Shown: positions 39,138 through 52,077 of the stretch, piece after piece
Layout: every line of letters starts with the position of its first letter
Numbering within the stretch: the first letter of the stretch is position 1
Assembly: GCA_036252695.1 (NCBI GenBank)
Contig: GCA_036252695.1_4122.1
Length of the DNA: 64,000 nt
Source of the DNA: a phage
Strand: one strand, 5' to 3'
Notes under the pieces: generated by a model
What the model saw: only the letters and a program-made list of their open reading frames with translations
Told to the model about the DNA's origin: nothing
Databases searched by the model: none
Made by a program: the position numbers and the translations under genes

Positions 39138-39199
39138 TACTGTATAATATTTTACATCGCAAGGGGGAGCGGTTCCCCCTGGTAACTAAGGATAATCAA

Positions 39200-39499: not shown

Positions 39500-39520
39500 T
39501 AGATACTACGGGGTAACATC

Positions 39521-39751: not shown

Positions 39752-39756
39752 GTACA

Positions 39757-39780
39757 TAGCCCACCTGGTGGGCTTTTTTG
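39757..39780 (+). terminator. intrinsic terminator
   Basis: agcccacc..ggtgggct stem then TTTTTT. Confidence 0.7.
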
Positions 39781-39984
39781 TTTTTGTAGTATCGTAGTAC
39801 TGAGATACTTTAAAAATAGTTTTAAAAAAGTAGTTGACATTACCACAAAAAGGCGTAGAATGTATTACATCAAGACGGGGAGCACTAAGTAGACCGCCAG
39901 TAAGTCGAACGAAAAACTGGACACGTCGAGAAAACTTTGATACACTAATAAACGTAAACTAAACTTTAATTGAGGATTTATAAA

Positions 39985-40467
39985 ATGGCTAATGTAAAAT
40001 CATTCATCAAAGCACTGGTAGCAAATGAAACTAACGTAGCGGCAGAGATCCTGGCTGAACTGGATAACGATACCATGAAAGCGGTACGCAATAATTTTAA
40101 CATCGCTTACAGTACTGCGAAAGAACTACAAGCAAATAAAGCGGCAGAAATTGAAGCGGCAAAGGCGGCCCGTGAAGCAGAACTACAAGCAACAATTGAA
40201 AGTATCCAGGCGGCAGTAGTTGGATTGGATCTGGAAGTAGTTACAGAGATGGCACAAAAAGCCCTGGCGGTTAAGTATGGGGAAGACAAGCCAGAAGTAA
40301 AAGCCAAAAAATGGATTCAGGAACGCGTAGCGGTAGTACTGGACAACGGGGAAGAATATCTGATTCCGGTGCGTGGTAACTGCATTGCGGTAGTACTGGA
40401 TGCGATTAACTCCAGTGGTATGACTCGCGAGGAATGGATCGAAGCTCATCGCAAAGTGGAAGCATAA
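39985..40467 (+). CDS. hypothetical protein (Ala/Glu-rich, predicted helical)
   Basis: Start MANVKSF after SD gagga; long structured leader from promoter at ~39836. Confidence 0.6.
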   Translation: MANVKSFIKALVANETNVAAEILAELDNDTMKAVRNNFNIAYSTAKELQANKAAEIEAAKAAREAELQATIESIQAAVVGLDLEVVTEMAQKALAVKYGEDKPEVKAKKWIQERVAVVLDNGEEYLIPVRGNCIAVVLDAINSSGMTREEWIEAHRKVEA

Positions 40468-40488
40468 CAATTAAAGTACTGAATCACT

Positions 40489-40515
40489 AGCCCACTGCAT
40501 AAGTGGGCTTTTTTG
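40489..40515 (+). terminator. intrinsic terminator
   Basis: gcccact-gcataa-gtgggc then TTTTTTG. Confidence 0.7.
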
Positions 40516-40751
40516 TGTTTATCGTTTACCAGGCCACCAGCACCGCCTAGAATCGATTCTAACGCATTAAACTGATTATCTGATGCATCGCCCTAGCTGG
40601 TGGCGTTAAGGTCGTTAGAATGCGATTGAGAGCGTTTAAAGTATTTTGCAAAAAGTAATAAAAAGTACTTGCACGATTAAGAGATTAGCGTATAATGTTT
40701 TACATCGAGAGGGGGAAACGGTTCTCCTTCCAAATCAAAGGAATTAAAACA

Positions 40752-40979
40752 ATGGCTATCGTAATCACTCGCGTAACTGGTACTACTGGCAATTCTTCTA
40801 CTGTTGCTGTAATTACTAATAAGAAAGGTGCGGAACTACATTTTGCAATGTATAACTGGTCAGTTGATGAGTTTGGTCAGTACGCTAGTGTAGAATACAT
40901 TGAAACCTATCAAGTGCCGTCGATTAGTTTAACTGATTTGGGCGTTGAGCGTATCCTTTGCCTGGATGAATTAAATTAA
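40752..40979 (+). CDS. hypothetical early protein
   Basis: Start MAIVITRV after promoter and hairpin gggggaaacggttctcc. Confidence 0.55.
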   Translation: MAIVITRVTGTTGNSSTVAVITNKKGAELHFAMYNWSVDEFGQYASVEYIETYQVPSISLTDLGVERILCLDELN

Positions 40980-41065
40980 AAAAGTACTTGCAAAGTAAAT
41001 CGAATAAAGTATAATACATTACATCAAGGGGAGAAATGGTTCTCCCTGATAATGAGGAAACTAAT

Positions 41066-41209
41066 ATGAAAACTTGTCAATGTGGTAAAAAATCTATTAC
41101 TGGTTTAAAGCGGGGCGTTGCTCTTTGTCAGTACCATTATAATTTACAAGTATGGGGTAAAGAATGGGCCGACCAGGTGGAAGCAGCAAAGAAAGCAAAA
41201 AGTAAGTAA
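41066..41209 (+). CDS. small Cys-containing protein (47 aa; CQCG..CQYH)
   Basis: Hand-translated ORF behind promoter and hairpin with SD gagga; below track cutoff. Confidence 0.4.
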   Translation: MKTCQCGKKSITGLKRGVALCQYHYNLQVWGKEWADQVEAAKKAKSK

Positions 41210-41228
41210 AAATATTATCACAGTACTA

Positions 41229-41257
41229 TTGACATAGTTTGATAGTACTGACATAAT
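41229..41257 (+). promoter_or_regulatory. class-2 promoter (AGTACT-flanked TTGACA..CATAAT)
   Basis: cagtactaTTGACAtagtttgatagtactgaCATAAT; same motif at ~41510, ~44590, ~52315. Confidence 0.55.
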
Positions 41258-41288
41258 AGATTTTATCAAGACAACTGAGGAAAATAAA

Positions 41289-41501
41289 ATGGCTATCATC
41301 ACTAAAATCAAAGTAAGTAAAACCCTGGTTAAACTTGAACAAGTGAAAGCAGGTTATAAAGTATCTTGGTGCGGTATGTATCGGATGTTCGCAGATATTG
41401 ATGAAGCAATCAATTATTACAGCGACACGGTTAAAAACTTTGTTCGTGCTGATGTGGTTATGGCAGTGGCAACGCACAAAGCAGCGAAAGAAAGTAAGTA
41501 A
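41289..41501 (+). CDS. hypothetical early protein (paralog of 44663..44842)
   Basis: MAIITKIKV..; similar N-term and length to 44663 gene. Confidence 0.55.
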   Translation: MAIITKIKVSKTLVKLEQVKAGYKVSWCGMYRMFADIDEAINYYSDTVKNFVRADVVMAVATHKAAKESK

Positions 41502-41590
41502 AAATATTATCACAGTACTATTGACATAGTTTGATAGTACTGGCATAATAGATTTTATCAAGACAACATATTAATTTAAGGAATACAAAA

Positions 41591-41914
41591 ATGGCTAAAA
41601 CTATCATTAACACCGTTTCCCTGGCTGCAATCCGTGCAATCAATGTTGACGGTAAACGTTGGACTGATTCATATGGCAATACTTATCATTCTTGTCATGT
41701 AAGCGTCGAACTGGATAACGGTTTGAATGATCTGGCGGTTGAATCATTTACTTATGGCTATGAAGATGCATATCAACAAACGGCGTTAGATCTATTAAAG
41801 GAATCAGTAGACGGGCTTAATACTGATGAAACCTCCCTTACTCGTTTGTGCAATGATCTTAATATCCCGTTGCATTGTACTGTACAGAATGTTAAACGCA
41901 AAAAAGATCTTTAA
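41591..41914 (+). CDS. hypothetical protein (paralog of 48675..48998)
   Basis: Shares RWTDSxGNTYHSCxVS and C-terminal VKRKKD with 48675 gene. Confidence 0.65.
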   Translation: MAKTIINTVSLAAIRAINVDGKRWTDSYGNTYHSCHVSVELDNGLNDLAVESFTYGYEDAYQQTALDLLKESVDGLNTDETSLTRLCNDLNIPLHCTVQNVKRKKDL

Positions 41915-41994
41915 TTAGCTTTACTTTATGCAGATACTTTGATATAGTGTCTGCATAGGGGAAAGAAATTAAATTAACTTAAGAGGAACGTATA

Positions 41995-42264
41995 ATGAAA
42001 AATATCAGTACTTTAATCGATGCAGGTACTCATGTTCGTCGGTCTATGGTTGCAACCAGTACTACAAAACAAGTAGCGAGCGGTTATCTTGTATTTGTGC
42101 ACGATGGTAAACTCCTGGAACGTTCAATCAATTTTGATGTTAAAAACAATTGCCGTTTTATTATCTTTAAGCGTGAACAATATAAAATTGATTTACCAGC
42201 GAAGCCCATAAGCGGGGCGTACAACGTGCAATCATTGTTTGAACGTCAACCATACACCTATTAA
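41995..42264 (+). CDS. hypothetical protein
   Basis: 89-aa ORF with SD gagga. Confidence 0.55.
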   Translation: MKNISTLIDAGTHVRRSMVATSTTKQVASGYLVFVHDGKLLERSINFDVKNNCRFIIFKREQYKIDLPAKPISGAYNVQSLFERQPYTY

Positions 42265-42315
42265 TCAAAACATCGTTAGCGGTCGATTTAGGCCGCTTGT
42301 ATTGGGGATTATACC

Positions 42316-42486
42316 ATGAACGTTAATCAAGTACTGAATGAGATCGAAAGCATCATTAAACCAATGAAACGCATTGATGCTATGTTAACACCGGAAGAAT
42401 GCCGCCTTTATGAGCGTTACAGTGTGGAACAAGCCCAGGAAATGGCCCGTATCCGTCCGGTTGCCAGTACTGATAAGGCGGCGTAA
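42316..42486 (+). CDS. hypothetical small protein (56 aa)
   Basis: Hand-translated; coupled to next gene (TAATATG). Confidence 0.35.
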   Translation: MNVNQVLNEIESIIKPMKRIDAMLTPEECRLYERYSVEQAQEMARIRPVASTDKAA

Positions 42487-42487
42487 T

Positions 42488-42697
42488 ATGCTTACTGTAC
42501 AGGATAAGATCGACATCTTAAAGGTTAATATGTATGTGATTGATGCCGTACCTGGTAAAGTATTTGCATACGATGATTCTAATCGCAGTCCGTTTTATTG
42601 CAGTCATGTAGTTGGATACGTGCCGTTGGCGTATGTTATAGAAAGAGTGGTTGATGCAGCATACAAACATTTTTTAGAAAATAATACTTGCAATTAG
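42488..42697 (+). CDS. hypothetical protein
   Basis: Start at internal Met MLTVQDK right after upstream stop. Confidence 0.45.
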   Translation: MLTVQDKIDILKVNMYVIDAVPGKVFAYDDSNRSPFYCSHVVGYVPLAYVIERVVDAAYKHFLENNTCN

Positions 42698-42767
42698 TTT
42701 TCAGTACTGTATAATGATTTACATCGAGAGCGGGAATAGTTCCCGCCTCACTTTTAAGGAATATGAA

Positions 42768-42914
42768 ATGAAAGCATCAAAAAAGAGTAATACTAAGAAA
42801 GCATGTTCACCTTTCGCTGGGGTATTCCCTTTACGTTTTGTTGATGAAGTAGTTTCCTACCCGCCGGGCCTTACTCCTGAGATGGTAGAAAGTTTGCGTA
42901 AATCTAAAAAATAG
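42768..42914 (+). CDS. hypothetical small basic protein (48 aa)
   Basis: Promoter, leader hairpin agcgggaatagttcccgc and SD aagga upstream. Confidence 0.45.
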   Translation: MKASKKSNTKKACSPFAGVFPLRFVDEVVSYPPGLTPEMVESLRKSKK

Positions 42915-42996
42915 TACTTGCAATTAGTTTTTAGTACTGTATAATAGTTTACATGAAGGGGAAAACGTTCCCCTTACACCTAACGAGGAAAGTATA

Positions 42997-43248
42997 ATGG
43001 AAACAATTTTAATCAAAGACACTGCTACTACTGTAACTTATGATAATGATTGCATTATCCCAGGGACTGAGTACGGCGAACGTGTACCCGTTCAAGTAGA
43101 GATTGATACCACATACATCGACAAGGCTGACCAGTGTATCACTATTGTAATTGGTGAATATCGTTTTCTACCAGAAGAGATCCAAAAATGGCAGAATATG
43201 ATTGACCGTGCGAAATTAGTCGCACAAAGTTTAAAATACAAAGTTTAA
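42997..43248 (+). CDS. hypothetical early protein
   Basis: Promoter, hairpin ggggaaaacgttcccc, SD gagga. Confidence 0.55.
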   Translation: METILIKDTATTVTYDNDCIIPGTEYGERVPVQVEIDTTYIDKADQCITIVIGEYRFLPEEIQKWQNMIDRAKLVAQSLKYKV

Positions 43249-43334
43249 AATAATACTTGCAATTAGTTTTTAAACGCGTATAATGTTTTACATGAAGGGG
43301 AGAAATGATTCTCCCCAATAACAGGAGAAACAAA

Positions 43335-43487
43335 ATGAAACAATACAACGCTCGGTTTGATGTTACTATCGGTAACGGCAAAGGTCAATTCTCTTTCAGT
43401 ACTCGCAAAAGTTATACAGAAAACTTCCTGCGTAATTGTGCACTGACCGCCGCACAAATTAAACATTACTTTCAGGCTAAAAAATGA
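43335..43487 (+). CDS. hypothetical small protein (50 aa)
   Basis: Promoter and hairpin ggggagaaatgattctcccc upstream; SD aggaga. Confidence 0.45.
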   Translation: MKQYNARFDVTIGNGKGQFSFSTRKSYTENFLRNCALTAAQIKHYFQAKK

Positions 43488-43573
43488 AATCATTAGCTTA
43501 TTACAGTTCGGCCCTGGTCGGTGCATTGATCGCGGCGTTGTTAGTAACCTATCTATTCTTTATGGTGATTTAA
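43484..43573 (+). CDS. putative 29-aa single-TM peptide
   Basis: Hand-translated MKSLAYYSSALVGALIAALLVTYLFFMVI; ATGA-coupled; speculative. Confidence 0.25.
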   Translation: MKSLAYYSSALVGALIAALLVTYLFFMVI

Positions 43574-43717
43574 ATGAATCCAACAGGTTTAAACTATAAA
43601 AGTTGTTCGGCGTTTACGAAAGCAAATAAAGCGAATGCACGTAAAGCGAAAGTAAAGGAGTACATCAAGCAAGGCATGACGCGAAAGGCGGCGATTCTAA
43701 AAGCTAAAAATAAATGA
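43574..43717 (+). CDS. putative small basic protein (47 aa)
   Basis: Hand-translated Lys-rich ORF directly after previous stop; speculative. Confidence 0.25.
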   Translation: MNPTGLNYKSCSAFTKANKANARKAKVKEYIKQGMTRKAAILKAKNK

Positions 43718-43860
43718 AAAAAGTGGTTGACTCCGGTCAGCCATTTTGCTATTATATATTCATTGAGAGATAGCTCACTAGCCCACAGGGTGCATAAGTG
43801 TATCTATTATATAAGTATTGAGTACTGAAAACTATTTTAAAAAAGTACTTGCAAACTATC
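43715..43860 (+). repeat. composite intergenic repeat unit (terminator with embedded TTGACT + TATTAT box + ~65-nt conserved segment)
   Basis: ggttgactccggtcagcc hairpin, gctattatata, then ..tagcccacagggtgcataagtgtatctat..cagtactgaaaactatttt; related copies near 47720, 51005, 52940; hairpin/-10 part also at 386..418 and 2014..2046. Confidence 0.55.
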
Positions 43861-43927
43861 TCAATAAGCGTATAATGTTTTACATCGAAAGGGGAAACGG
43901 TTTCCCCTGGTAATAAGGAAACAAATC

Positions 43928-44269
43928 ATGACTATCTCAATTGCTCAATCTAACTTTGAAAACGAAATCATCGCCCAGGCACTGCGTTTAAATGATGGTC
44001 GGGCCGAAATTAATTACGGTTTCAATTCAGGCGGTTGTGAAAAATATCAGTACTTTGTAACGGCTGATGGCGGTGTCCTGGGTATCAATACAGTTATTGT
44101 AAACATCCAAAAAATTAATTTCAATGATCCAGACGATAGCCAGTTTTACATCACTGGCGTAGACGTGAACTATGAGGATGACTCACTAACTGATGATCAC
44201 ACTGGCGAGCGGTTAGAAAGTGCATACGGTGAAGATGATTATCAGTCCGGTCCAGAAGATTTCGAATAA
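43928..44269 (+). CDS. hypothetical acidic protein
   Basis: 113-aa ORF behind promoter, hairpin ggggaaacggtttcccc and SD aagga. Confidence 0.6.
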   Translation: MTISIAQSNFENEIIAQALRLNDGRAEINYGFNSGGCEKYQYFVTADGGVLGINTVIVNIQKINFNDPDDSQFYITGVDVNYEDDSLTDDHTGERLESAYGEDDYQSGPEDFE

Positions 44270-44366
44270 TATAAAAAAAATAGTTTGACAATAGATTATA
44301 GTACTGTATAATAGTTTACATCAAGGGGAGAAAAACTTCTCCCCACTAACAGAGAGAGAAAACAAA

Positions 44367-44579
44367 ATGGCTAATATCCGGTCGAAATTAAAAAATGCAA
44401 AACAAGTTTTATTTTCAGATCATGAATACTTTAATAAAGATATTACAGGAGTTACAAGTATCAAGGAAGTAAAAGAAAAAACCGGCGTTTTGTGTGATGT
44501 GCGATTAGTTGGGACATTTGGGAATAACGTGCTATATCGCTGCGGTGATTACAATTTTACACTGACTATCATTAACTAA
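44367..44579 (+). CDS. hypothetical early protein
   Basis: Promoter TTGACA..TATAAT, hairpin ggggagaaaaacttctcccc, SD. Confidence 0.55.
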   Translation: MANIRSKLKNAKQVLFSDHEYFNKDITGVTSIKEVKEKTGVLCDVRLVGTFGNNVLYRCGDYNFTLTIIN

Positions 44580-44662
44580 AAATATTATCACAGTACTATT
44601 GACATAGTTTGATAGTACTGACATAATAACTTTTATCAACTACACTACTAAGGAATTAAAAA

Positions 44663-44842
44663 ATGGCTATCATCGCAAAAACTGAAATCGTTGGTCTGGA
44701 TTCTATCATCATGACGTTTGAAGATCAAAAAGGTATGTATGTAGTTTCCTATGGTGATTATGTTCGGGAGTATGAAACGGTAGACGAAGCCTTTGAAAGT
44801 TATATTCGCCAGGTGAATAAAGCATACGACGACTACCGCTAA
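44663..44842 (+). CDS. hypothetical early protein (59 aa; paralog of 41289..41501)
   Basis: Hand-translated MAIIAKTEIVG...; class-2 promoter upstream. Confidence 0.45.
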   Translation: MAIIAKTEIVGLDSIIMTFEDQKGMYVVSYGDYVREYETVDEAFESYIRQVNKAYDDYR

Positions 44843-44941
44843 AATATATTACCAGTACTATTAAATCTATTGACAACGTTTGATAGTACTGTATAATAAG
44901 TTTTATAAACAGTAGTTAACTTAACCTAAGAGAGAAATAAA

Positions 44942-45085
44942 ATGATCGCACTGGATTCATTCATCGACGCAGTACTGGCAAAAACTGGCGAGGATCTGAC
45001 CGCAGAACAATACGCGATGATCGAGCAATGTCAGCAAAACGGTAAATCGGTGAAAGATACTGTTAAGATTATCCGCAAGATGTAA
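44942..45085 (+). CDS. hypothetical small protein (47 aa)
   Basis: Hand-translated; promoter TTGACA..TATAAT upstream; hairpin terminator downstream. Confidence 0.4.
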   Translation: MIALDSFIDAVLAKTGEDLTAEQYAMIEQCQQNGKSVKDTVKIIRKM

Positions 45086-45091
45086 GATTAT

Positions 45092-45120
45092 AGCCCACTG
45101 GTTAACGCTGGTGGGCTTTA
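45092..45120 (+). terminator. probable intrinsic terminator
   Basis: agcccac..gtgggct stem with 12-nt loop; weak T tract. Confidence 0.45.
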
Positions 45121-45190
45121 ATCATTTACCCTATACAATGCCAGTACTAAACCGTTTATCTCGTTAGAATGCGTTACAGGACGTTTAACA

Positions 45191-45388
45191 ATGATTAGCA
45201 TGAAATCAGTACAAAAACAAATAGAAACATTATCAAAAATTAAACGTAAACAATACTCCTTAGAATATACAATCAATGGTAACTATCATCTAATGAAAGA
45301 AAATAATTTTATAGTCATTGATGAATCATTGCAAATTATTAGTATAGTACTGAAAGCATTAATCAATGACAGAAAAAAATTAAAATAA
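45191..45388 (+). CDS. hypothetical protein
   Basis: 65-aa ORF; AT-rich codons unlike neighbours. Confidence 0.4.
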   Translation: MISMKSVQKQIETLSKIKRKQYSLEYTINGNYHLMKENNFIVIDESLQIISIVLKALINDRKKLK

Positions 45389-45469
45389 TCTATTGACAAT
45401 ATCCTCCAGTACTGGCATAATACTTACATCAAGACGAGAACGTCACTAACCCATAGGGTGCACAAATGT

Positions 45470-45570
45470 AACTATATAATATCGATCAATAAATGATCAA
45501 AAAAGTACTGGATCAATTTAGCATAAGGAGTATAATTCTGATCAATTCTTGATCAAAGGCAATAAACGCA
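45470..45570. repeat. cluster of TGATCAA/TTGATCA motifs
   Basis: Five GATCAA-containing sites within ~90 bp in an intergenic region. Confidence 0.5.
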
Positions 45571-45717
45571 GTTGAATTTATATAGACAATACGAAGGCGT
45601 TACTATCCGTGGTAATGCTGGTGGATATGTAGTATCATGTGGTTTGAATAAGATTAGCACTAGTAGTATTATTGTAGCATTACAGTACTATAGTATTTTT
45701 ATAATGAGGTTAAAATA

Positions 45718-45975
45718 ATGGCTGTAGGATTTGCGAAGGACGGGGCCGAACAAGACGAGATTAACGCAGTGATTCAGGCCGCCGTAAACCACGCTAGAAA
45801 GCAAATTAACGCACAAATAGAATCACTGATACATTGCCTCGACTGTGGCGATAAAATCCCTGAGAATCGCCGCCAGGCTGTTAAGGGATGTAAGTACTGC
45901 ATAACTTGCCAGGAGGATCATGATAGTACTTTTAAAAGAGATCCGCGTAATTGTTGGCATAGATCTATGAGATAA
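45718..45975 (+). CDS. TraR/DksA-family C4 zinc-finger protein
   Basis: CLDCGDKIPENRRQAVKGCKYCITCQ gives the C-x2-C-x17-C-x2-C spacing with conserved IPxxRRQA core; SD aatgagg. Confidence 0.75.
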   Translation: MAVGFAKDGAEQDEINAVIQAAVNHARKQINAQIESLIHCLDCGDKIPENRRQAVKGCKYCITCQEDHDSTFKRDPRNCWHRSMR

Positions 45976-46038
45976 AAAGTATTGACAGTACTGAAAGATA
46001 GTGTATAATATTTTATATCTTAACTGAGGATAGTAATC

Positions 46039-46395
46039 ATGGGAATACAACATATCACGCGTACTACTGACAATGGTGAGATCACTGGCTATCAAGTACA
46101 GGGCAAAGTAGCACAATTGCAGTACTGGTTTGAAAAACGTGGAATCATTGCACCGGATCTTGATTATGACCGTGTAGCGTTTATTGATTCTCTTTATGTT
46201 GATCCTGATAGTCGGGGCAATGGTGAAGGTAACGAATTAATGAATGCCTTTATCGATGCCGCCGATGATTCAGATTGTATCATCTTAGAATGCGATACGG
46301 GAGAAGATAACGCCTTTAATCTTAAAGAATGGTACGAAGGTTTTGGATTCGAGGTACTGATCGATAGTGAATATCCTATCATGATTTTATCATAG
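46039..46395 (+). CDS. GNAT-family acetyltransferase-like protein
   Basis: LYVDPDSRGNGEGNELMNAFIDAA resembles GNAT acetyl-CoA-binding motif A; C-terminal YEGFGFE motif-B-like. Confidence 0.55.
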   Translation: MGIQHITRTTDNGEITGYQVQGKVAQLQYWFEKRGIIAPDLDYDRVAFIDSLYVDPDSRGNGEGNELMNAFIDAADDSDCIILECDTGEDNAFNLKEWYEGFGFEVLIDSEYPIMILS

Positions 46396-46467
46396 TACTT
46401 GCATTTAGTTTTCAGTACTGTTATAGTACTTACATCAAGGGGAAACGTCTTCCCCTACTAAGAGGAA

Positions 46468-46662
46468 ATGAAAATGGAAAACTTATCAAGTATTTTAGTA
46501 CAAGATGATTTCGGTAATCCTGGAAGTGCTATCATAGTTCGGGGCAATAAAGCAACGTTTGTTCTTGCTGGTGGGCCAGTACAGCGTAGCATTAAAAATA
46601 ATGCTGTTACCATTAATAATGTACGCTATCGCTTAGATAAAGAATTAATTAAAAATATGTAA
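46468..46662 (+). CDS. hypothetical early protein
   Basis: Promoter, hairpin ggggaaacgtcttcccc, SD gagga. Confidence 0.55.
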   Translation: MKMENLSSILVQDDFGNPGSAIIVRGNKATFVLAGGPVQRSIKNNAVTINNVRYRLDKELIKNM

Positions 46663-46687
46663 TATTAACTCAATAGGAAAACGATAA

Positions 46688-47011
46688 ATGTATATTCACA
46701 CTACTATCACAAAAGAAGTCCGTTGTCAATTCGAAAGTATCCCAGGTGTATGTTTCATTACAGGCACTTTCTCACCTGGTGACCGTGATAATCCAGTACT
46801 GTTACAATTACGCCATCCATCATGGGATAAAGCATTTGATCTACCGTTGAATGAATTCGCAACTACTGCTGAAAAGTACATTAAAAATATTCGCGAGAAT
46901 GATCGACTATTCATTAATGCTTTCAGTGATTCCGCGTTAAGCGAGATTCATGCGGTACTAGTTGCAATCATGGAATCAATGCAGAAAACTAAATTCAAAC
47001 AAGGTGAATAA
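46688..47011 (+). CDS. hypothetical protein
   Basis: 107-aa ORF with SD-like aggaaaa. Confidence 0.55.
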   Translation: MYIHTTITKEVRCQFESIPGVCFITGTFSPGDRDNPVLLQLRHPSWDKAFDLPLNEFATTAEKYIKNIRENDRLFINAFSDSALSEIHAVLVAIMESMQKTKFKQGE

Positions 47012-47095
47012 AAACTATTGACAATGCAATCCAGTACTGTATAATAAGTTACATGAAGGGGAGAAATGATTCTCCCCAGTACTGAGGAAAGAAAA

Positions 47096-47308
47096 ATGCA
47101 AGGTCAACTAATCGTTCGTAAATGGTCTGATACTAACGCTAAACCGTGGGATGTACAATACATCGCCCCCAATGGTGAATCCAGATATCAACCAGGTGTA
47201 ACGCATAGTACTGAGCAATTTGCCGCCGCTCACCGTGAACGACTGTTACAATCCATGCAGCAAGGCTTCGGTGAAAAATTCATTCAGGATCATTGGCTGA
47301 AAGATTAA
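47096..47308 (+). CDS. hypothetical early protein
   Basis: Promoter TTGACA..TATAAT, hairpin ggggagaaatgattctcccc, SD gagga. Confidence 0.55.
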   Translation: MQGQLIVRKWSDTNAKPWDVQYIAPNGESRYQPGVTHSTEQFAAAHRERLLQSMQQGFGEKFIQDHWLKD

Positions 47309-47394
47309 AAAGTACTTGCACAGTACTGAATAAAGTGTATAATGTTTTATATCGAGAGGGGAACTATTCCCCTCCTAACAAAAAGGAAAGTATA

Positions 47395-47568
47395 ATGATC
47401 CAAGTAGAATTATCAGTACTGAAAGATCTATTTTATCGGTTAGGTACTAATGGCGAGTATCCTAAAAGTGATACCGCAAAACTTTTTGTATCACTCGACT
47501 TATGGCAACGCGAACAATTAGTAATGTCGTGGCGTAAAGGTAAAGCAGATCGCGAGGTGAAAGCATGA
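47395..47568 (+). CDS. hypothetical small protein (57 aa)
   Basis: Start after promoter, hairpin gaggggaactattcccctc and SD aagga. Confidence 0.45.
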   Translation: MIQVELSVLKDLFYRLGTNGEYPKSDTAKLFVSLDLWQREQLVMSWRKGKADREVKA

Positions 47569-47714
47569 AAGAATTCTTATTCGAAGTAGTGTTTCAAGGT
47601 GTCGGTAGTAACCAACTGATTCGCTCAAGTGGTTATAATGTTAACCAGGCATGGAATAACATTAAACAAATGTACCCGAACGCTATCACATATCGCAACC
47701 CGAAAGAAGTTTAA
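47565..47714 (+). CDS. hypothetical small protein (49 aa)
   Basis: Hand-translated; ATGA-coupled. Confidence 0.35.
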   Translation: MKEFLFEVVFQGVGSNQLIRSSGYNVNQAWNNIKQMYPNAITYRNPKEV

Positions 47715-47899
47715 AAATAATTGAAAAAGGGATTGACTCCGGTCAATCCCTTTGCTATTATATACGCATAGAAACAAATTAGCCCACCGGGTGCATAAAT
47801 GTATCTATTGTTTGCTGGTGGCTAGTACTATCAAGTACTGAAAACTATTTTTAAAAAAGTACTTGCATTGTACTTAGAATCAAGTATAATGTTTTACAT

Positions 47900-47979
47900 C
47901 AGGACGGGGAACGAAATAAGTAACTTCCCGTTAAGTAGTCCAGGAGTAAGACATACGAAAAACTCCCCTGATAAAATAG
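47900..47979 (+). ncRNA. candidate structured RNA element / long leader (copy 2)
   Basis: Near-identical to 36925..37004; again sits between two tandem promoters. Confidence 0.4.
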
Positions 47980-48040
47980 TTTGACAATAGAAATTAAACG
48001 AGTATAATACTTACATCAACCACTGATAAGGAAACATAAA

Positions 48041-48316
48041 ATGCGGATTCTACTGACAGCTAACGAAATCGAACAAGTACTGACTACTAACCTGGAAGAC
48101 TGGAAACGTGAAGCAGATATCCAGTCGGTTCAATGGCTTAACGATAAGTTAACGCCGGATGACTTAAGCAAGATTGTAGATCCTCAATTCTACGAAGATA
48201 TCCACGACACCGCGTTAAGCGTCGAGGATGTACTAGATAAGCACTTTATTGATACAGATTTGCAGGTTTACGGTCGTAAAAACTTTATCACTATTCACGA
48301 CATTTACAATACTTAA
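48041..48316 (+). CDS. hypothetical protein
   Basis: 91-aa ORF with SD aagga behind second tandem promoter. Confidence 0.6.
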   Translation: MRILLTANEIEQVLTTNLEDWKREADIQSVQWLNDKLTPDDLSKIVDPQFYEDIHDTALSVEDVLDKHFIDTDLQVYGRKNFITIHDIYNT

Positions 48317-48319
48317 GTA

Positions 48320-48382
48320 TTGACAAAGTATCTTAGTACTGTATAATAGTTTACATCAAGTGAGGGGAAACGGTTCCCCTCC
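48320..48382 (+). promoter_or_regulatory. class-3 promoter plus leader hairpin
   Basis: TTGACA 48320..48325, TATAAT 48342..48347, hairpin gaggggaaacggttcccctc 48363..48382; near-identical copy ~48593..48650. Confidence 0.6.
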
Positions 48383-48404
48383 TAACAAAGAGAGAGAAAT
48401 AAAA

Positions 48405-48587
48405 ATGGCTAAGTGCACTATCTGCAAGAAAGAAATAGTATTAGTTCCAAGTGCCCGTGAACGTGCCGCTCGGTTTGGTGGCAAAGCGTCAGACTATACA
48501 AAAATGTTTACTGCCCATACAGCTTGCCAGGTAGCAAAACGTTCACAAGAAAGCGTAGAATTAATGCGTAAACTTTCCAAAAAATAA
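48405..48587 (+). CDS. small putative zinc-ribbon protein
   Basis: MAKCTICKKE...HTACQ (CxxC ... HxxC); SD gagaga. Confidence 0.5.
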   Translation: MAKCTICKKEIVLVPSARERAARFGGKASDYTKMFTAHTACQVAKRSQESVELMRKLSKK

Positions 48588-48674
48588 GTATTGACAAAGT
48601 ATCTTAGTACTGTATAATAGTTTACATCAAGTGAGGGGAATGGTTCCCCTCCTAACAAAAAGAGAGAAATTAAA

Positions 48675-48998
48675 ATGACTATGATCCTTACCCAGAAAGT
48701 AGAAATGAAAATTGTAACTTCCTTTGACATTAAAGTTAATCGGTGGACTGATAGCCACGGCAATACTTACCACTCATGCTACGTGTCTGCATTGATTGGT
48801 GACCGCTGGGAAGACCTGGGACATGAAACCTTTACTTACGGTTACGGTACACAAGGCGAATACACGGGCTTGGAGATCATTAAAGAAACCGTTATAGGTT
48901 TCAACCCGAAAGAAAAAGTTATTCACCGCATCGAGGAAGAGATCAACAAAGAAATTACAGTTCGTTACTACGATGTAAAACGTAAGAAAGACATGTAA
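48675..48998 (+). CDS. hypothetical protein (paralog of 41591..41914)
   Basis: Shares RWTDSHGNTYHSCYVS motif. Confidence 0.65.
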   Translation: MTMILTQKVEMKIVTSFDIKVNRWTDSHGNTYHSCYVSALIGDRWEDLGHETFTYGYGTQGEYTGLEIIKETVIGFNPKEKVIHRIEEEINKEITVRYYDVKRKKDM

Positions 48999-49097
48999 TA
49001 GAATCCATTTAAAGTACTATTTGACATTGCCCAGATAGTACTTTATAATAGACTCTAACTTGTAGTACTAATTAACTTAACTAATAGGATGTACACC

Positions 49098-49493
49098 ATG
49101 ATTACTAAATTCTTCGCTACCCGTGAACAAGCTCGCATCGTTGCCCGTGAAGAAGGTGAAACATTTAAAGACATGGGCAAAGATGCACCGAAAGGACAAC
49201 GCTGGGCGGTACAGTTCAAAGAGATCTCTGATATTGTGAATTCACCTGAACCAGTACTTACTGAAGCAGAACTGAAGAAAGCTCAAGAACTGGCTGAAGT
49301 ACTGAACGCTCAAGATGACTTCTTGAAAGGTTCTGATATTCAAGTACAAGTGAATAGTAATGCATGGACTCACGCGGATCACCTGGCAAACCTTAAGCGT
49401 CCAAGTGAACTGATTCGTAACCAGAAAGAGATTCGTCATGACCGTAAAGGAAACCGTGTAACAGTATACAGTAAACGCCGCCAGGTTATCTAA
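49098..49493 (+). CDS. hypothetical protein (paralog of 36056..36322)
   Basis: MITKFFATREQARIVAR..TFKDMG..RKGNRVTVY. Confidence 0.65.
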   Translation: MITKFFATREQARIVAREEGETFKDMGKDAPKGQRWAVQFKEISDIVNSPEPVLTEAELKKAQELAEVLNAQDDFLKGSDIQVQVNSNAWTHADHLANLKRPSELIRNQKEIRHDRKGNRVTVYSKRRQVI

Positions 49494-49555
49494 TAACTTT
49501 GCAGTACTAACAACACGGCGGGAACTATTCCCGCCTTTTTTATAGGATAAACAAA

Positions 49556-49810
49556 ATGATTAAGGTTCAACTATCAAACGATAATGTATTACGGGTACAC
49601 TATAAAGCCCCACAGAGAATCATCACAAAGGCCGTACAGCTTGCTAATGAGTTTATTAATGGTAGTCTATTGCCTAGGAAGTTAAGCAACGGGAAACTAC
49701 GTGTTATCGATGTAGACACTAACAATAGAATAGTGATCGAGAGTACTGGAAAAATTAATCTATATGAACACCAACAATACAATAAAAAAATAAAACTAAT
49801 ATCACGTTGA
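49556..49810 (+). CDS. hypothetical protein
   Basis: 84-aa ORF after hairpin ggcgggaactattcccgcc plus T run. Confidence 0.5.
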   Translation: MIKVQLSNDNVLRVHYKAPQRIITKAVQLANEFINGSLLPRKLSNGKLRVIDVDTNNRIVIESTGKINLYEHQQYNKKIKLISR

Positions 49811-49868
49811 CAGTACTCAAATGTTTTAGTATTATGTATCTATACCAACACAGAGAGAGAGAAACAAA

Positions 49869-50087
49869 ATGAAATTATCTAAAATCGAAAAGAAAACTAT
49901 TGATGAAGCAGTGAAGCACGGTTATACCTTTCGTAATGATTCACACTTCACTAGTTTTCAACAGGGAAACCGTACCATCAAAAAACTCATTGATAAAGGT
50001 TTACTCACTAAGGTTGATAACGGGAACGGTGTAGAATATCAACCGACAGAAGACGCATTATCACTAAAGAAATATTCTATTATCTAA
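49869..50087 (+). CDS. hypothetical protein
   Basis: 72-aa ORF with SD gagaga. Confidence 0.55.
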   Translation: MKLSKIEKKTIDEAVKHGYTFRNDSHFTSFQQGNRTIKKLIDKGLLTKVDNGNGVEYQPTEDALSLKKYSII

Positions 50088-50144
50088 TTGACAGTACTCA
50101 AATGTTTTAGTACTATGTACGCATACCAACACGGGGAAAACAAA

Positions 50145-50387
50145 ATGATTACTTTAGAAAAACGTATCAAAGAGACTACAACGCTGGTGGAACTGTTAAC
50201 CGTTCTTAAATGCCGGGTAACTCCATTCAGTACACCGGACTTTATCAACATGGTGGACGTTAACGGTCGATATCGTATTGCGGTCGAACAAGGTACGGCA
50301 AAAGTATTCAGTACTAAAAATACGCGTGAAGTATTCCACGCAGTTCAAGTAAAAAAAGTAGTTGCCATTGATAGTAAAGTACTGTAA
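50145..50387 (+). CDS. hypothetical protein
   Basis: Start MITLEKR after SD gggga; upstream ~35 nt nearly identical to the region before 49869. Confidence 0.5.
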   Translation: MITLEKRIKETTTLVELLTVLKCRVTPFSTPDFINMVDVNGRYRIAVEQGTAKVFSTKNTREVFHAVQVKKVVAIDSKVL

Positions 50388-50418
50388 TATAGTTTCATTA
50401 ACTCAAGGAGTCAACACA

Positions 50419-51003
50419 ATGCGTAACTATACTAAATTCATCCGTTCACTTCATGCAATGGAAACCAACAAAGAGATCCTTTCAGCTTGTCGGTTAGCTG
50501 GACTGGAGATCGTCGGTGCGGGTTCTTCCCGTATTGTATTCGCTTTAAATGATCGGTTAGTGATTAAGGTCGCGAATTGTGATGCGGGTGTAGAACAAAA
50601 TGAAACTGAATGTAAGGTATGGAATTTTTTAGATTATGACCGTCCGCACCTTAAACAGTACTTTGCTAAAGTGCATATGCATTTATGCGATCCTGATAAT
50701 CTGTTTATTGTTATGGATCGTTTGAGTACTGCAAGCAAAGGCAGTGTAAAGCATGTAAACGCGTGCAATGAGTTAAAGTACAATATTAAACGTAATACGG
50801 TAGAACGCCATCACCATTTCGCTGATGCTCTCAATCACGTTGATGATACATTATCCACACTAACGATAAGAGATATCAGAAAACAGAATATCGGCCAGGA
50901 TCGCAACGGCTTGATTAAAGTACTTGATTACGGTTTAACCCGCAATATCTGGAATCAGTACTATAAAAAACGTGATGTTAACGCGATAACTATAACACGA
51001 TAA
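50419..51003 (+). CDS. protein-kinase-like protein (putative Ser/Thr kinase)
   Basis: Gly-rich loop VGAGSSRIV, VAIK-like VIKVA, catalytic-loop-like IRDIRKQN, DFG-like VLDYG, in the canonical order; strong SD aaggag. Confidence 0.6.
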   Translation: MRNYTKFIRSLHAMETNKEILSACRLAGLEIVGAGSSRIVFALNDRLVIKVANCDAGVEQNETECKVWNFLDYDRPHLKQYFAKVHMHLCDPDNLFIVMDRLSTASKGSVKHVNACNELKYNIKRNTVERHHHFADALNHVDDTLSTLTIRDIRKQNIGQDRNGLIKVLDYGLTRNIWNQYYKKRDVNAITITR

Positions 51004-51227
51004 AAAAGATTAAAAAAGGGATTGACTCCAGTCAGTCCCTTTGCTATTATATATTCATTGAGAGATAACTCACTGACCCATAGGGTGCGGAAGTGTATCT
51101 ATTATATAAGTATTCAGTACTGAAAACTATTTTATAAAAAGTACTTGCAAACTATCTCAATGAGCGTATAATGTTTTATATCGAGAGGGGGAAATGGTTC
51201 TCCCTGGTACTAAAAGGAATCAAGACG

Positions 51228-51449
51228 ATGACTACTATGACATGCGTTCACGCTTCAAATCTTCTGAATGATGCAGCATTTAAAGCAGGTGAAGAATATC
51301 AATGCTATCGGGATGAAAATAAAAAAGTTTTCGTCGTTGATGCTAACGGTTTCCATATTGAATTACAATCCGGCTTCACTGGTGTTGATGGTAAATCAGT
51401 ATGGGGCGTACAGGATGATAACGGTACATATCATTTTAAACGTAATTAA
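51228..51449 (+). CDS. hypothetical early protein
   Basis: Promoter, hairpin gagggggaaatggttctccct, SD aagga. Confidence 0.55.
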   Translation: MTTMTCVHASNLLNDAAFKAGEEYQCYRDENKKVFVVDANGFHIELQSGFTGVDGKSVWGVQDDNGTYHFKRN

Positions 51450-51533
51450 GTATTGACAAAGTATATCAGTACTGTATAATAGTTTACATCAAGGGGAGAA
51501 TAGCTCTCCCCACCAATAAAAGGAAACAAAATT

Positions 51534-51806
51534 ATGTCCAGCTACTCCGCTACTATGATTATTAAAGATATGAACGGTAATCCTACTTCTGCTGGTGGAT
51601 CATTTGGTAACATTAATTTAGATGGGCGGTTATCAATTGAATCAGCCATCAATGCAGCGAAAGAAGTTTTTAAGAATGAATGTACTGTAAGCAAACTGGA
51701 TTATATGGGCTTCGCTATCGAGAAAACTAATCGTTTTGTGGACTACAAAAAACCACTGATGATTGATACTAACCTGAAAGCAAACGAAGTGGAATACTTA
51801 TTATGA
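51534..51806 (+). CDS. hypothetical early protein
   Basis: Class-3 promoter, hairpin ggggagaatagctctcccc, SD aagga. Confidence 0.6.
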   Translation: MSSYSATMIIKDMNGNPTSAGGSFGNINLDGRLSIESAINAAKEVFKNECTVSKLDYMGFAIEKTNRFVDYKKPLMIDTNLKANEVEYLL

Positions 51807-51994
51807 CAGTAGAAGAAGTTAAAAAAGTACTGGCAGTACTACGCTATCATAATCATTGTAAGGTGAAGAATGATCCTGATTATCTTGATTCATCGCTGGA
51901 AGAGGATACACTACAAGCAATAAGCCATATGCAAAAAATGCTTAAGCGTATGACCGAAAAGAACAGGCCGGACTATATCGGAAATAAAATTTAA
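51803..51994 (+). CDS. hypothetical protein
   Basis: ATGA-coupled 63-aa ORF. Confidence 0.5.
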   Translation: MTVEEVKKVLAVLRYHNHCKVKNDPDYLDSSLEEDTLQAISHMQKMLKRMTEKNRPDYIGNKI

Positions 51995-52077
51995 AAAGTA
52001 CTTGCATTGTAAGTAAAACAAAGTATAATGTTTTACATAGGGGGAGATATCCTCCCCCACTAATAAGGAGTACTAAA

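What the first reader, a model, noticed from the sequence alone, without database searches (positions are those of the whole stretch)
45718..45975. TraR/DksA-like zinc-finger protein (probable RNAP secondary-channel binder)
The C-x2-C-x17-C-x2-C spacing with the IPxxRRQA core (CLDCGDKIPENRRQAVKGCKYCITCQ) matches the DksA/TraR C4 finger. Phage TraR homologs reprogramme host transcription, which fits a genome using host sigma70-type promoters.
Basis: partly seen in the sequence, partly recalled or inferred. Interest (0 to 1): 0.5.

Follow-up and report, generated by a model that had tools for sequence, protein, structure and literature searches.

The report
YbiI-type TraR/DksA zinc-finger phage protein
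This is a real, strongly conserved 85-residue early gene of a 121Q-like jumbo coliphage that belongs to the TraR/DksA zinc-finger family and probably binds host RNA polymerase; its relatives are already annotated this way, so it is an ordinary finding, except that it is of the untested YbiI subtype, which lacks TraR's canonical DxxDxA tip.

Summary
The ORF at 45718..45975 (+) exists exactly as described. It has the C-x2-C-x17-C-x2-C finger and the IPENRR core, and scores 45 bits against Pfam zf-dskA_traR (threshold 24.9). It is under strong purifying selection (dN/dS about 0.1). The window is an Asteriusvirus jumbo coliphage. In close relatives the orthologue lies in the ~21-kb direct terminal repeat, among small genes driven by perfect sigma-70 promoters (11 found, 0.17 expected), and is already annotated 'DksA-like zinc-finger protein'.

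The nearest relative is not TraR but E. coli YbiI, whose function is unknown. A predicted structure matches YbiI and RNA-polymerase-bound TraR. Nine of the twelve positions conserved in TraR-type proteins are kept, including the arginine pair that contacts the polymerase. The three that are lost are exactly D3, D6 and A8 of the DxxDxA motif, which TraR needs for activity. In their place is an invariant MAVG[F/W]AKDGAEQ tip, three residues longer, plus an invariant C-terminal tail, PRNCWHRSMR.

Best reading: an early host-takeover factor that binds the polymerase secondary channel. Binding is probable; a TraR-like effect on transcription is inferred, not shown. Novelty: already known at the annotation level. 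Interest is low.

The parts
45718..45975 (+). CDS of the 85-aa YbiI-type TraR/DksA-family zinc-finger protein (stop codon included)
   Evidence: ORF list; Pfam, PHROG and NCBIfam hits; dN/dS about 0.1; orthologues annotated as DksA-like zinc-finger protein
45718..45753 (+). N-terminal tip, residues 1-12 (MAVGFAKDGAEQ). It is invariant in the phage copies and nearly so in bacterial YbiI-type proteins, and it replaces TraR's DxxDxA tip
   Evidence: Column counts over 58 sequences; left unaligned with TraR residues 1-8 by hhalign; the AF2 helix starts at residue 8 and residues 1-10 average pLDDT 51
45739..45810 (+). Predicted long N-terminal helix (residues 8-31), the counterpart of the TraR-N helix that runs down the RNAP secondary channel
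   Evidence: AF2 secondary structure; hhalign alignment of query 12-77 to TraR-type 9-74; Foldseek match to 6N57_M
45835..45909 (+). C4 zinc finger C40-x2-C43-x17-C61-x2-C64
   Evidence: Read directly from the sequence; Pfam PF01258 matches residues 39-68; all four Cys invariant in 58 of 58 sequences
45856..45873 (+). I47-P-E-N-R51-R52 core, corresponding to TraR I44-P-E46-A-R48-R49 (contacts with the beta' rim helices and beta'Si3)
   Evidence: I47, R51 and R52 invariant, P48 and E49 at 90% or more; roles of TraR R48, R49 and E46 from PMC9239242 and PMC6970531
45901..45930 (+). Predicted short C-terminal helix (residues 62-71), counterpart of the TraR-C helix; the invariant D69 aligns with the invariant TraR E66
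   Evidence: AF2; position table
45931..45972 (+). C-terminal tail FKRDPRNCWHRSMR (residues 72-85), with no counterpart in TraR; a diverged form of the bacterial YbiI tail YNRRGSKDSQLR
   Evidence: R77-M84 invariant or nearly so in the 45 phage-type sequences; intermediate tails in P0136, P0146 and P0167; codons vary while amino acids do not
45706..45709 (+). Shine-Dalgarno GAGG, 8 nt upstream of the ATG
   Evidence: Sequence; the segment 45680-45719 is invariant in 8 asteriusvirus genomes
45572..45718 (+). Upstream small ORF (about 48 aa, TTG start, phrog_38664). Its TAA stop overlaps the ATG of the zinc-finger gene (TAATG), so the two are probably co-transcribed and translationally coupled
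   Evidence: Open in 8 genomes across two diverged subgroups; variable columns by codon position 12/9/22; PHROG E 8.5e-32; annotated in fEgEco12 and CMSTMSU
45509..45536 (+). Candidate promoter of the two-gene unit: TGGATC-16-TATAAT (TTGATC-16-TATAAT in the SP27/BF17 subgroup)
   Evidence: Sequence and alignment. It falls below the scan tool's -35 threshold in the window, so this is an inference
45393..45421 (+). Strong promoter TTGACA-17-CATAAT with a TG extension. No terminator is predicted before the gene, so read-through could also express it
   Evidence: Promoter and terminator scan; conserved in 8 genomes

Best explanation
The gene encodes a small zinc-finger protein of the TraR/DksA family, of the YbiI subtype. 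It is made from host sigma-70 promoters at the very start of infection, and in close relatives it lies in the terminal repeat, which would give two copies per packaged genome.

The inferred mechanism has three steps. [quoted passage not shown] The long N-terminal helix (residues 8-31) runs down the channel. The invariant tip MAVG[F/W]AKDGA sits next to the active centre.

[quoted passage not shown] Host rRNA and ribosomal-protein promoters would be shut down. The phage's own early promoters should stay insensitive, because they have perfect -35 and -10 elements, mostly a TG-extended -10, and an A+T-rich discriminator.

What is shown here: family membership, fold, conservation of the polymerase-contact residues, purifying selection, and placement among early sigma-70 promoters. 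What is inferred: binding to RNA polymerase, the direction of the effect on transcription, and the roles of the non-canonical tip and of the extra C-terminal tail.
For: - **Family:** Pfam PF01258 scores 45 bits against a 24.9 cut-off. PHROG_54 gives E 3.8e-19. NCBIfam's best match is the YbiI model, then the TraR models. In the PDB, YbiI 2KGO gives E 2.7e-12 and TraR 5W1S/6N57 E 8e-6.
- **Profile comparison:** hhalign against a TraR-type alignment that includes the experimentally active VP882 Orf61 gives probability 99.4% and E 6.6e-22 over residues 12-77.
- **Fold:** the AF2 model (pLDDT 74) has helix, zinc knuckle, helix. The Foldseek top hits are YbiI, RNAP-bound TraR (TM 0.64 on the target, 3.2 A over 67 columns) and RNAP-bound DksA.
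- **Contact residues:** 9 of the 12 positions conserved at 90% or more in TraR-type proteins are kept, including R48 (as R51) and E66 (as D69). R52 (TraR R49) and E49 (TraR E46) are also conserved.
- **Precedents:** Gp34 lacks D3 and VHML Orf8 has an N-terminal extension, yet both bind RNAP and inhibit rrnB P1 (PMC9239242). YbiI was reported to rescue dksA-null auxotrophy when overexpressed, as data not shown (PMC2613031).
- **Selection:** dN/dS is about 0.1, and the tip and tail are invariant despite saturated synonymous divergence.
- **Setting:** there are 11 perfect sigma-70 promoters against 0.17 expected. Eight of the 11 have a TG extension, and discriminators average 23% G+C. The orthologue lies inside the experimentally verified 20,993-bp terminal repeat of fEgEco12, a phage reported to encode a sigma factor, with no phage polymerase mentioned.
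Against: - **Motif:** the DxxDxA motif required for TraR and Orf73 activity (D3N and D6N strongly reduce inhibition) is absent in the profile-profile register, where D3, D6 and A8 fall on A6, G9 and E11. Only a one-residue shift recovers D8-G-A10, and the first Asp is then an aromatic residue.
[quoted passage not shown] This protein has three more N-terminal residues, so it cannot insert in the same way.
- **No direct test:** no YbiI-type protein has published biochemistry. The only functional statement is 'data not shown', and those authors favoured an iron-related role.
- **Cut-offs:** scores are below the NCBIfam cut-offs for both the TraR and the YbiI models.
- **Model quality:** the AF2 tip and tail have low confidence (pLDDT 51-52).
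- **Family caveat:** some C4-finger family members are known not to act like DksA or TraR.
Confidence: 0.6

Rival explanations
1. It binds the RNA polymerase secondary channel but does not act like TraR. With a non-canonical and longer tip, it could act as a plug or competitor, as Rnk does. It might exclude DksA/ppGpp and the Gre factors, or broadly inhibit catalysis of host transcription, instead of selectively retuning open-complex kinetics.
For: The docking residues are conserved but the activity motif is not. In DksA the tip aspartates are needed for function, not for binding. The N-terminus is three residues longer, although TraR already reaches to 4.3 A from the Mg2+. The tip contains invariant G4 and G9 and an aromatic residue at position 5, and is predicted to be non-helical before residue 8. 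Rnk is a precedent for a binder without factor activity.
Against: YbiI was reported to rescue dksA-null auxotrophy when overexpressed. That needs positive DksA-like activity on amino-acid promoters, not mere blocking (data not shown in that paper). Extreme conservation of the tip argues for a specific active role. Homologues with imperfect motifs or an N-terminal extension kept TraR-like activity.
Confidence: 0.2
2. YbiI-type proteins, including this phage protein, have a target other than RNA polymerase. The zinc ribbon, with its own conserved N- and C-terminal motifs, would bind another protein or nucleic acid. One example is an iron- or stress-related role, as suggested for E. coli ybiI from its position next to fiu-ybiX and its sigma-S dependence.
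For: Both termini carry hyper-conserved motifs that TraR lacks. ybiI is sigma-S dependent and of unknown function. Blankschien et al. favoured an iron-metabolism role. Not every C4 finger of this family acts on RNAP.
Against: Three bacterial YbiI-type genes examined have unrelated neighbourhoods, with no YbiX-type oxygenase or iron-uptake genes, and none is present near the phage copies. The residues conserved between this family and TraR are precisely the RNAP-contact positions R48, R49, E46 and E66. Every solved structure that matches significantly is an RNAP secondary-channel factor or YbiI itself.
Confidence: 0.15
3. It is a chance ORF or a decaying gene with no function.
For: One relative, CMSTMSU, carries a frameshifted copy. 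The gene is short and lies in a region full of small ORFs.
Against: dN/dS is about 0.1, and amino-acid sequence is conserved across saturated synonymous divergence in two unrelated phage groups. The gene has a proper SD and start. The CMSTMSU record is flagged UNVERIFIED. HMM E-values range down to 3.8e-19 in the family libraries.
Confidence: 0.02

Closest known systems
E. coli YbiI (b0803; PDB 2KGO; NCBIfam NF008243/PRK11019), an uncharacterised 88-aa DksA/TraR-family zinc-finger protein
   Same: It is the best sequence match among solved structures (E 2.7e-12, aligned over residues 1-69) and the top Foldseek hit. Bacterial relatives are 49-62% identical. The length is about the same, the N-terminal motif MAxG[F/W]AxDGA is shared, the IPExRR core and C4 spacing are the same, and the basic C-terminal tail is homologous though diverged.
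   Different: The score of 82.2 bits is below the equivalog cut-off of 96. The tail is PRNCWHRSMR instead of YNRRGSKDSQLR. YbiI is encoded by a chromosome and expressed from a sigma-S promoter; this gene is a phage early gene behind sigma-70 promoters. The function of YbiI itself is not established.
F-plasmid TraR and its tested phage homologues (lambda Orf73, P2 Orf82, VP882 Orf61, VHML Orf8, X. bovienii Gp34)
   Same: The architecture is the same: N-helix, C4 zinc globule, C-helix. hhalign gives 99.4% probability, and the model matches TraR in its RNAP complex with TM 0.64 on the target. R48, R49, E46, I44, P45, G54 and E66 all have conserved equivalents. Both are carried by mobile elements of Enterobacteria and are expressed when the element takes over the cell.
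   Different: There is no in-register DxxDxA. There are three extra N-terminal residues and about nine extra C-terminal residues. Scores fall below TIGR02419 (52.8 against 59.7) and NF010268 (31.4 against 108). All five tested homologues come from temperate phages or prophages; this one is in virulent jumbo and T4-like phages.
DksA (E. coli, 151 aa)
   Same: The C4 zinc-finger globular domain is the same Pfam family, and 7KHI_M and 5VSW_M appear among the Foldseek hits.
   Different: It lacks the long two-helix coiled coil, the ppGpp-contacting residues and the DksA C-terminal helix. NF033459 scores 16 bits against a cut-off of 105. Like TraR, it would have to act without ppGpp.

Membership tests
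Pfam PF01258 zf-dskA_traR (DksA/TraR C4 zinc finger) | Profile score at or above the curated gathering threshold | tested here: met
   45 bits against 24.9, E 1.1e-11, residues 39-68 on profile positions 5-34 of 36
Pfam PF01258 zf-dskA_traR (DksA/TraR C4 zinc finger) | Four cysteines spaced C-x2-C-x17-C-x2-C | tested here: met
   C40, C43, C61 and C64, invariant in 58 of 58 family members
TraR-type secondary-channel regulators (as defined functionally in PMC9239242) | Conserved DxxDxA motif at the start of the N-terminal helix | tested here: not met
   hhalign aligns query 12-77 with TraR-type 9-74 and leaves residues 1-11 unaligned. In that register D3, D6 and A8 fall on A6, G9 and E11. Only a one-residue shift gives F5-A-K-D8-G-A10
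TraR-type secondary-channel regulators (as defined functionally in PMC9239242) | Arg pair equivalent to R48 and R49 (beta' rim helices and beta'Si3 contacts), plus E46 | tested here: met
   R51 and R52 invariant, E49 at 90% or more, I47 invariant, P48 at 90% or more
TraR-type secondary-channel regulators (as defined functionally in PMC9239242) | C-terminal helix after the second CxxC (beta lobe-Si1 contact) | tested here: inconclusive
   AF2 predicts a helix at 62-71, and the invariant D69 aligns with the invariant E66. But the helix is short, ends before P76 and is followed by a tail that TraR lacks. Contact with Si1 cannot be tested
TraR-type secondary-channel regulators (as defined functionally in PMC9239242) | Curated NCBIfam TraR models reached (TIGR02419 subfamily, NF010268 equivalog) | tested here: not met
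   52.8 bits against 59.7, and 31.4 against 108
TraR-type secondary-channel regulators (as defined functionally in PMC9239242) | Binds RNA polymerase at the DksA site and changes initiation at rRNA promoters without ppGpp | not testable with these tools
   Needs biochemistry. The only hint is the unpublished YbiI complementation mentioned in PMC2613031
YbiI family (NCBIfam NF008243 / PRK11019) | Equivalog score cut-off | tested here: not met
   82.2 bits against 96, covering residues 1-73 on profile positions 1-72 of 88
YbiI family (NCBIfam NF008243 / PRK11019) | N-terminal motif MAxG[F/W]AxDGA (my own definition, taken from the alignment of 150 representatives) | tested here: met
   MAVGFAKDGA. 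Column counts: M 58, A 58, G4 58, F/W/Y5 58, D8 53, G9 57 and A10 55, each out of 58
YbiI family (NCBIfam NF008243 / PRK11019) | C-terminal tail YNRRGSKDSQLR (my own definition, from the alignment) | tested here: not met
   The tail is PRNCWHRSMR. Intermediates (P0136 HNRKVWHRSMR, P0146 LYNRKANYHTQLR) indicate divergence from the YbiI tail, not an unrelated sequence
DksA proper | Long N-terminal coiled coil with DxxDxA at its tip, and about 150 aa in length | tested here: not met
   85 aa with a single N-helix; NF033459 scores 16.2 bits against 105

The most novel reading that the evidence does not exclude
YbiI-type proteins, which include this phage clade, may be a mechanistically distinct subclass of RNA-polymerase secondary-channel factors. 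They would have an aromatic-x-x-D-x-A tip on a three-residue N-terminal extension that reaches into or caps the active centre, plus a conserved basic C-terminal tail making a contact that TraR does not make. Virulent jumbo and T4-like phages would have recruited this subclass as an immediate-early host shut-off factor. That would also give the first functional handle on E. coli YbiI, an orphan protein for which 2,574 clusters (at 50% identity) match the family profile.
Probability: 0.3. Interest if true: 0.45.

Novelty: already known. Interest (0 to 1): 0.2.

Why it matters
As it stands this is a correct but routine annotation. Orthologues 89-99% identical are already in public records, labelled 'DksA-like' or 'TraR/DksA C4-type zinc finger protein', and PHROG_54 covers the family.

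Its modest value lies in three points.

1. All tested phage TraR homologues come from temperate phages. This clade sits in virulent jumbo and T4-like phages, in an immediate-early setting, so it would extend ppGpp-independent reprogramming of host RNA polymerase to lytic takeover.
2. It is of the YbiI subtype, which keeps the polymerase-docking residues but swaps the activity motif for a different, even more conserved tip. A single biochemical test would therefore also inform on the long-orphan E. coli gene ybiI.
3. For annotators, it illustrates that a zf-dskA_traR hit does not by itself justify transferring TraR's function.

Tried and rejected
1. **Tail as a separate module.** Four viral loci (L024-L027) matched only 'PRNCWHRSMR'. 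The peptide lies in an alternative frame inside a 307-aa antirepressor-like ORF, and an 8-residue degenerate pattern could recur by chance in a collection of that size. Rejected as chance.
2. **A conserved partner gene.** The upstream ORF overlaps the start codon both here and in T4-like phages. But the upstream proteins are unrelated: BLASTP finds no alignment, and they fall in different PHROGs (38664, 10861 and 653). Rejected.
3. **Functional linkage to the downstream GNAT acetyltransferase.** The GNAT gene is absent in SD-1_S14 and BF17, which keep the zinc-finger gene. Rejected as obligate.
4. **An RNA element in the long upstream gap.** No Rfam match comes near its gathering score, and the leader folds no better than shuffles (z -0.58). 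Most of the gap is explained by the small ORF.
5. **The iron/YbiX partnership as a family trait.** It was not seen in three bacterial neighbourhoods.
6. **Literature on YbiI.** Only a 'data not shown' remark and its sigma-S dependence were found. Most other 'YbII' hits were ytterbium chemistry.
7. **Homology search with TraR.** It returned mostly close orthologues, so the TraR-type profile was widened with phage homologues obtained by tblastn.
8. **MAFFT alignment of TraR with the family.** It placed a 3-residue gap inside the N-helix. I did not rely on it, and used hhalign instead.

Full report
**1. Observation**

The quoted peptide is present. The cysteines are C40, C43, C61 and C64, giving C-x2-C-x17-C-x2-C, the same spacing as F-plasmid TraR. 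A GAGG Shine-Dalgarno sequence lies 8 nt upstream of the ATG.

Pfam zf-dskA_traR scores 45 bits against a gathering score of 24.9, E 1.1e-11. PHROG_54 'DksA-like zinc-finger protein' gives E 3.8e-19.

The gene is real.
- Against two asteriusvirus orthologues, dN/dS is 0.10-0.11.
- Against the copies in T4-like phages, synonymous sites are saturated (pS 0.75-0.96) while pN is only 0.20-0.25.
- Residues 1-12 and 76-85 never change at the protein level, although most use 2-4 different codons.
- It is single-copy in the window and is the only finger of this type there.

**2. Source and setting**

The window is 93-96% identical at the nucleotide level to Asteriusvirus jumbo coliphages such as 121Q, PBECO4/SP27, vB_Ec-M-J and fEgEco12.
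- The orthologues are already annotated 'DksA-like zinc-finger protein', 'TraR/DksA C4-type zinc finger protein' or 'C-4 type zinc finger protein'.
- In vB_Ec-M-J the orthologue lies inside the annotated 21.5-kb direct terminal repeat.
- In fEgEco12 it lies inside the 20,993-bp repeat, which was confirmed by PhageTerm and restriction mapping. That paper reports a phage sigma factor and does not report a phage RNA polymerase (PMC13070987).
- The region is a one-directional block of small genes. The window contains 11 perfect TTGACA-N16-18-TATAAT sites, all on the + strand between 37.0 and 52.7 kb, against 0.17 expected. Eight of them carry a TG-extended -10, and their discriminators average 23% G+C.

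**3. Local gene structure**

The 329-nt 'gap' upstream is not empty.
- A roughly 48-aa ORF (45572..45718, TTG start) is open in all eight asteriusvirus genomes compared, across two diverged subgroups. It shows a third-position excess of variable sites (12/9/22). It matches phrog_38664 at E 8.5e-32 and is annotated in two relatives.
- Its TAA stop overlaps the ATG of the zinc-finger gene (TAATG).
- A promoter-like TGGATC-16-TATAAT lies at 45509-45536, and reads TTGATC-16-TATAAT in the other subgroup. A strong TTGACA-17-CATAAT promoter with a TG extension lies at 45393-45421. No terminator is predicted before the gene.
- The GNAT acetyltransferase gene downstream has its own perfect promoter and is missing from two relatives, so it is not an obligate partner.
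- In T4-like phages the homologue lies a few genes downstream of tk and again overlaps the stop codon of the preceding ORF. Those upstream ORFs are unrelated to one another and to the one here.

**4. Which subfamily**

The closest characterised relative is E. coli YbiI, not TraR.
- PDB 2KGO (YbiI) scores E 2.7e-12 over residues 1-69. TraR scores E 8e-6 over residues 18-71.
- NCBIfam ranks the YbiI equivalog first (82.2 bits, below its cut-off of 96). It is followed by TIGR02419 (52.8 against 59.7) and the TraR equivalog (31.4 against 108).
- Word-indexed homology search found three tiers: asteriusvirus proteins (89-99% identical), 84-87-aa proteins that include T4-like phages such as Moon, MHG19, fHe-Yen9-01 and vB_EcoM_RZ (63-76%), and 88-aa bacterial YbiI-like proteins (49-62%).
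- An exhaustive profile search found 2,574 clusters at 50% identity (324 at E 1e-10 or better). The phage type collapses into one cluster. The listed hits are nearly all YbiI-like, with N-terminus MAxGW[A/S/T]xDGAVQ and C-terminus YNRRGSKDSQLR.
- Intermediate tails (P0136 HNRKVWHRSMR, P0146 LYNRKANYHTQLR) show that the phage tail PRNCWHRSMR is a diverged YbiI tail.
- Serratia phage Muldoon, a T4-like phage, carries a copy with the bacterial-type tail.

**5. Fold**

AlphaFold2 on a 58-sequence alignment gave pLDDT 74, with helices at 8-31, 49-54 and 62-71. Both ends have low confidence. The Foldseek top hits in the PDB are:
- YbiI (E 6e-5);
- TraR in its RNA polymerase complexes, 6N57_M and 5W1S_M (TM 0.63-0.64 on the target, 3.2 A rmsd over 65-67 alignment columns);
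- DksA bound to polymerase (7KHI_M).

Unrelated zinc fingers follow only at E above 0.2.

**6. Does it have what TraR needs to work?**

The literature is explicit that a C4 finger is not sufficient (PMC9239242). The functional features are:
- the DxxDxA motif at the start of the N-helix (D3N or D6N variants of lambda Orf73 inhibit much less well);
- R48 and R49 in the globular domain;
- the C-terminal helix.

I built a TraR-type alignment from F TraR, diverged TraR orthologues and seven phage homologues, including the experimentally active VP882 Orf61. In it D3 and D6 are invariant and A8 is conserved at 90% or more.

Profile-profile comparison with the phage/YbiI alignment gives 99.4% probability (E 6.6e-22). 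But the aligned block is query 12-77 to TraR 9-74, so it stops just short of the motif.

Position by position, nine of the twelve positions conserved at 90% or more in TraR-type proteins are kept:
- C40, C43, C61 and C64;
- I47, P48, R51 and G57;
- D69, aligned with TraR E66.

R52 (TraR R49) and E49 (TraR E46) are also conserved.

The three positions that are not kept are D3, D6 and A8, which fall on A6, G9 and E11. A one-residue slip would give [F/W/Y]5-A-K-D8-G-A10. That keeps the critical second Asp and the Ala but replaces the first Asp with an aromatic residue.

In the cryo-EM complex TraR residue S2 is only 4.3 A from the catalytic Mg2+ (PMC6970531). This protein has three more N-terminal residues, so its invariant, glycine-containing, apparently non-helical tip must be accommodated differently.

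There are precedents for tolerance. Gp34 lacks D3 and VHML Orf8 has an N-terminal extension. Both still bind polymerase and inhibit rrnB P1, with higher IC50 values (415 and 800 nM against about 50 nM for TraR).

**7. What is known about YbiI**

Very little is known.
- One paper states, as data not shown, that overexpressed YbiI rescues the amino-acid auxotrophy of a dksA-null strain but not of a relA spoT strain. Its authors nevertheless guess at an iron-related role from gene position (PMC2613031).
- ybiI is sigma-S dependent and of unknown function (PMC4447067).
- Three bacterial YbiI-type genes that I examined have unrelated neighbourhoods without iron or YbiX-type genes. The iron link therefore looks local to E. 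coli.

**8. Most likely mechanism**

- Shown: TraR/DksA family membership, a TraR-like fold, retention of the polymerase-docking residues, strong purifying selection, and placement among immediate-early sigma-70 promoters in a phage with no reported polymerase of its own.
- Inferred: the protein docks on the beta' rim helices, sends its N-helix down the secondary channel, and alters initiation without ppGpp. It would switch off host rRNA and ribosomal-protein promoters. The phage's consensus promoters should be insensitive, because it is established for DksA/ppGpp and TraR that promoters forming long-lived open complexes are not inhibited.
- Unknown: whether the non-canonical tip gives TraR-like selectivity, a stronger block or something else, and what the extra tail contacts.

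I put 0.6 on the binding-and-reprogramming reading. The other readings get 0.2 (a channel binder with a different outcome), 0.15 (a target other than polymerase) and 0.02 (no function).

**9. Novelty and score**

The identification is correct but already present in public annotation, so I rate it 'already known' with interest 0.2.

The most novel reading still open is that YbiI-type proteins are a distinct subclass of secondary-channel factor, recruited by virulent jumbo and T4-like phages for early takeover. I give this a probability of about 0.3. It would be moderately interesting because it would also assign a function to E. coli YbiI.

Noticed in passing
window 37006-52670 (+ strand): Eleven perfect TTGACA-N16-18-TATAAT promoters where 0.17 are expected, all on one strand. 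Most share the block AGTACTG immediately before TATAAT (a TG-extended -10 plus a conserved AGTAC) and a discriminator of the form AGTTTACA. They look like a phage-specific 'super-consensus' early promoter class in the terminal-repeat gene block.
   Followed up: partly
window 45572-45718 (+): A small ORF of about 48 aa with a TTG start (GTG in the SP27 subgroup), matching phrog_38664. It is open in 8 genomes and shows a third-position excess of variable sites. Its stop overlaps the ATG of the zinc-finger gene. It is unannotated in most relatives, for example vB_Ec-M-J, SP27 and BF17.
   Followed up: yes
window 45484-45554: Five GATC (Dam) sites in 71 nt, all as GATCAA. This is the densest GATC cluster in the 64-kb window, against a background of 0.21 per 100 nt. 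The sites flank and overlap the candidate promoter 45509-45536, whose -35 element itself contains a GATC. The upstream part of the cluster is conserved in the second asteriusvirus subgroup. Possibly a methylation-sensitive promoter or a SeqA-type binding site.
   Followed up: partly
window 45420-45480: A stretch of about 60 nt just downstream of the strong promoter 45393-45421 is almost invariant (0-1 variable columns per 20 nt) across 8 genomes, although the sequence further downstream diverges heavily. There is no ORF, no Rfam match and no significant RNA structure (z -0.58). It remains unexplained.
   Followed up: partly
window 46039-46395 (+): A GNAT acetyltransferase gene (Pfam Acetyltransf_1, 37 bits) with its own perfect promoter at 45982-46009. 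It is absent as a clean indel from Salmonella phage SD-1_S14 and Escherichia phage BF17.
   Followed up: partly
window 45895-45972 (residues 60-85): phrog_25948, a 54-position profile of unknown function, matches only the last 26 residues of the protein (E 1.3e-11). These may be truncated or split versions of the same gene in other phages, or the tail may occur as a module on another N-terminus.
   Followed up: no
L036 (Escherichia phage CMSTMSU, MH494197.1) 715-975: The orthologue of the zinc-finger gene is frameshifted after residue 37 and is not annotated. The record is flagged UNVERIFIED_ORG, so sequencing error is as likely as real decay.
   Followed up: partly
L035 (Serratia phage Muldoon) 133-399; P0136; L023 2986-3225: The family shows tail diversity within phages. 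Muldoon (T4-like) has the bacterial YNRRGSKDSQLR tail. P0136 has a hybrid tail, HNRKVWHRSMR. A 292-kb viral contig has a 79-aa relative with N-terminus MSGYGGADDES and no such tail.
   Followed up: partly
L041 4001-4267 (1.36-Mb bacterial contig): A bacterial YbiI-type gene sits between trpE (Chorismate_bind) and SelO, followed by trpG, trpD and trpC. That is inside an amino-acid biosynthesis cluster, the class of operon that DksA and TraR activate. It is a single anecdote.
   Followed up: no
window 48360-48587 (+): Another small Cys-containing ORF in the same early block (…MAKCTICKKEIV…FTAHTACQVAKRSQ…). It may be a different zinc-ribbon protein and was not examined.
   Followed up: no
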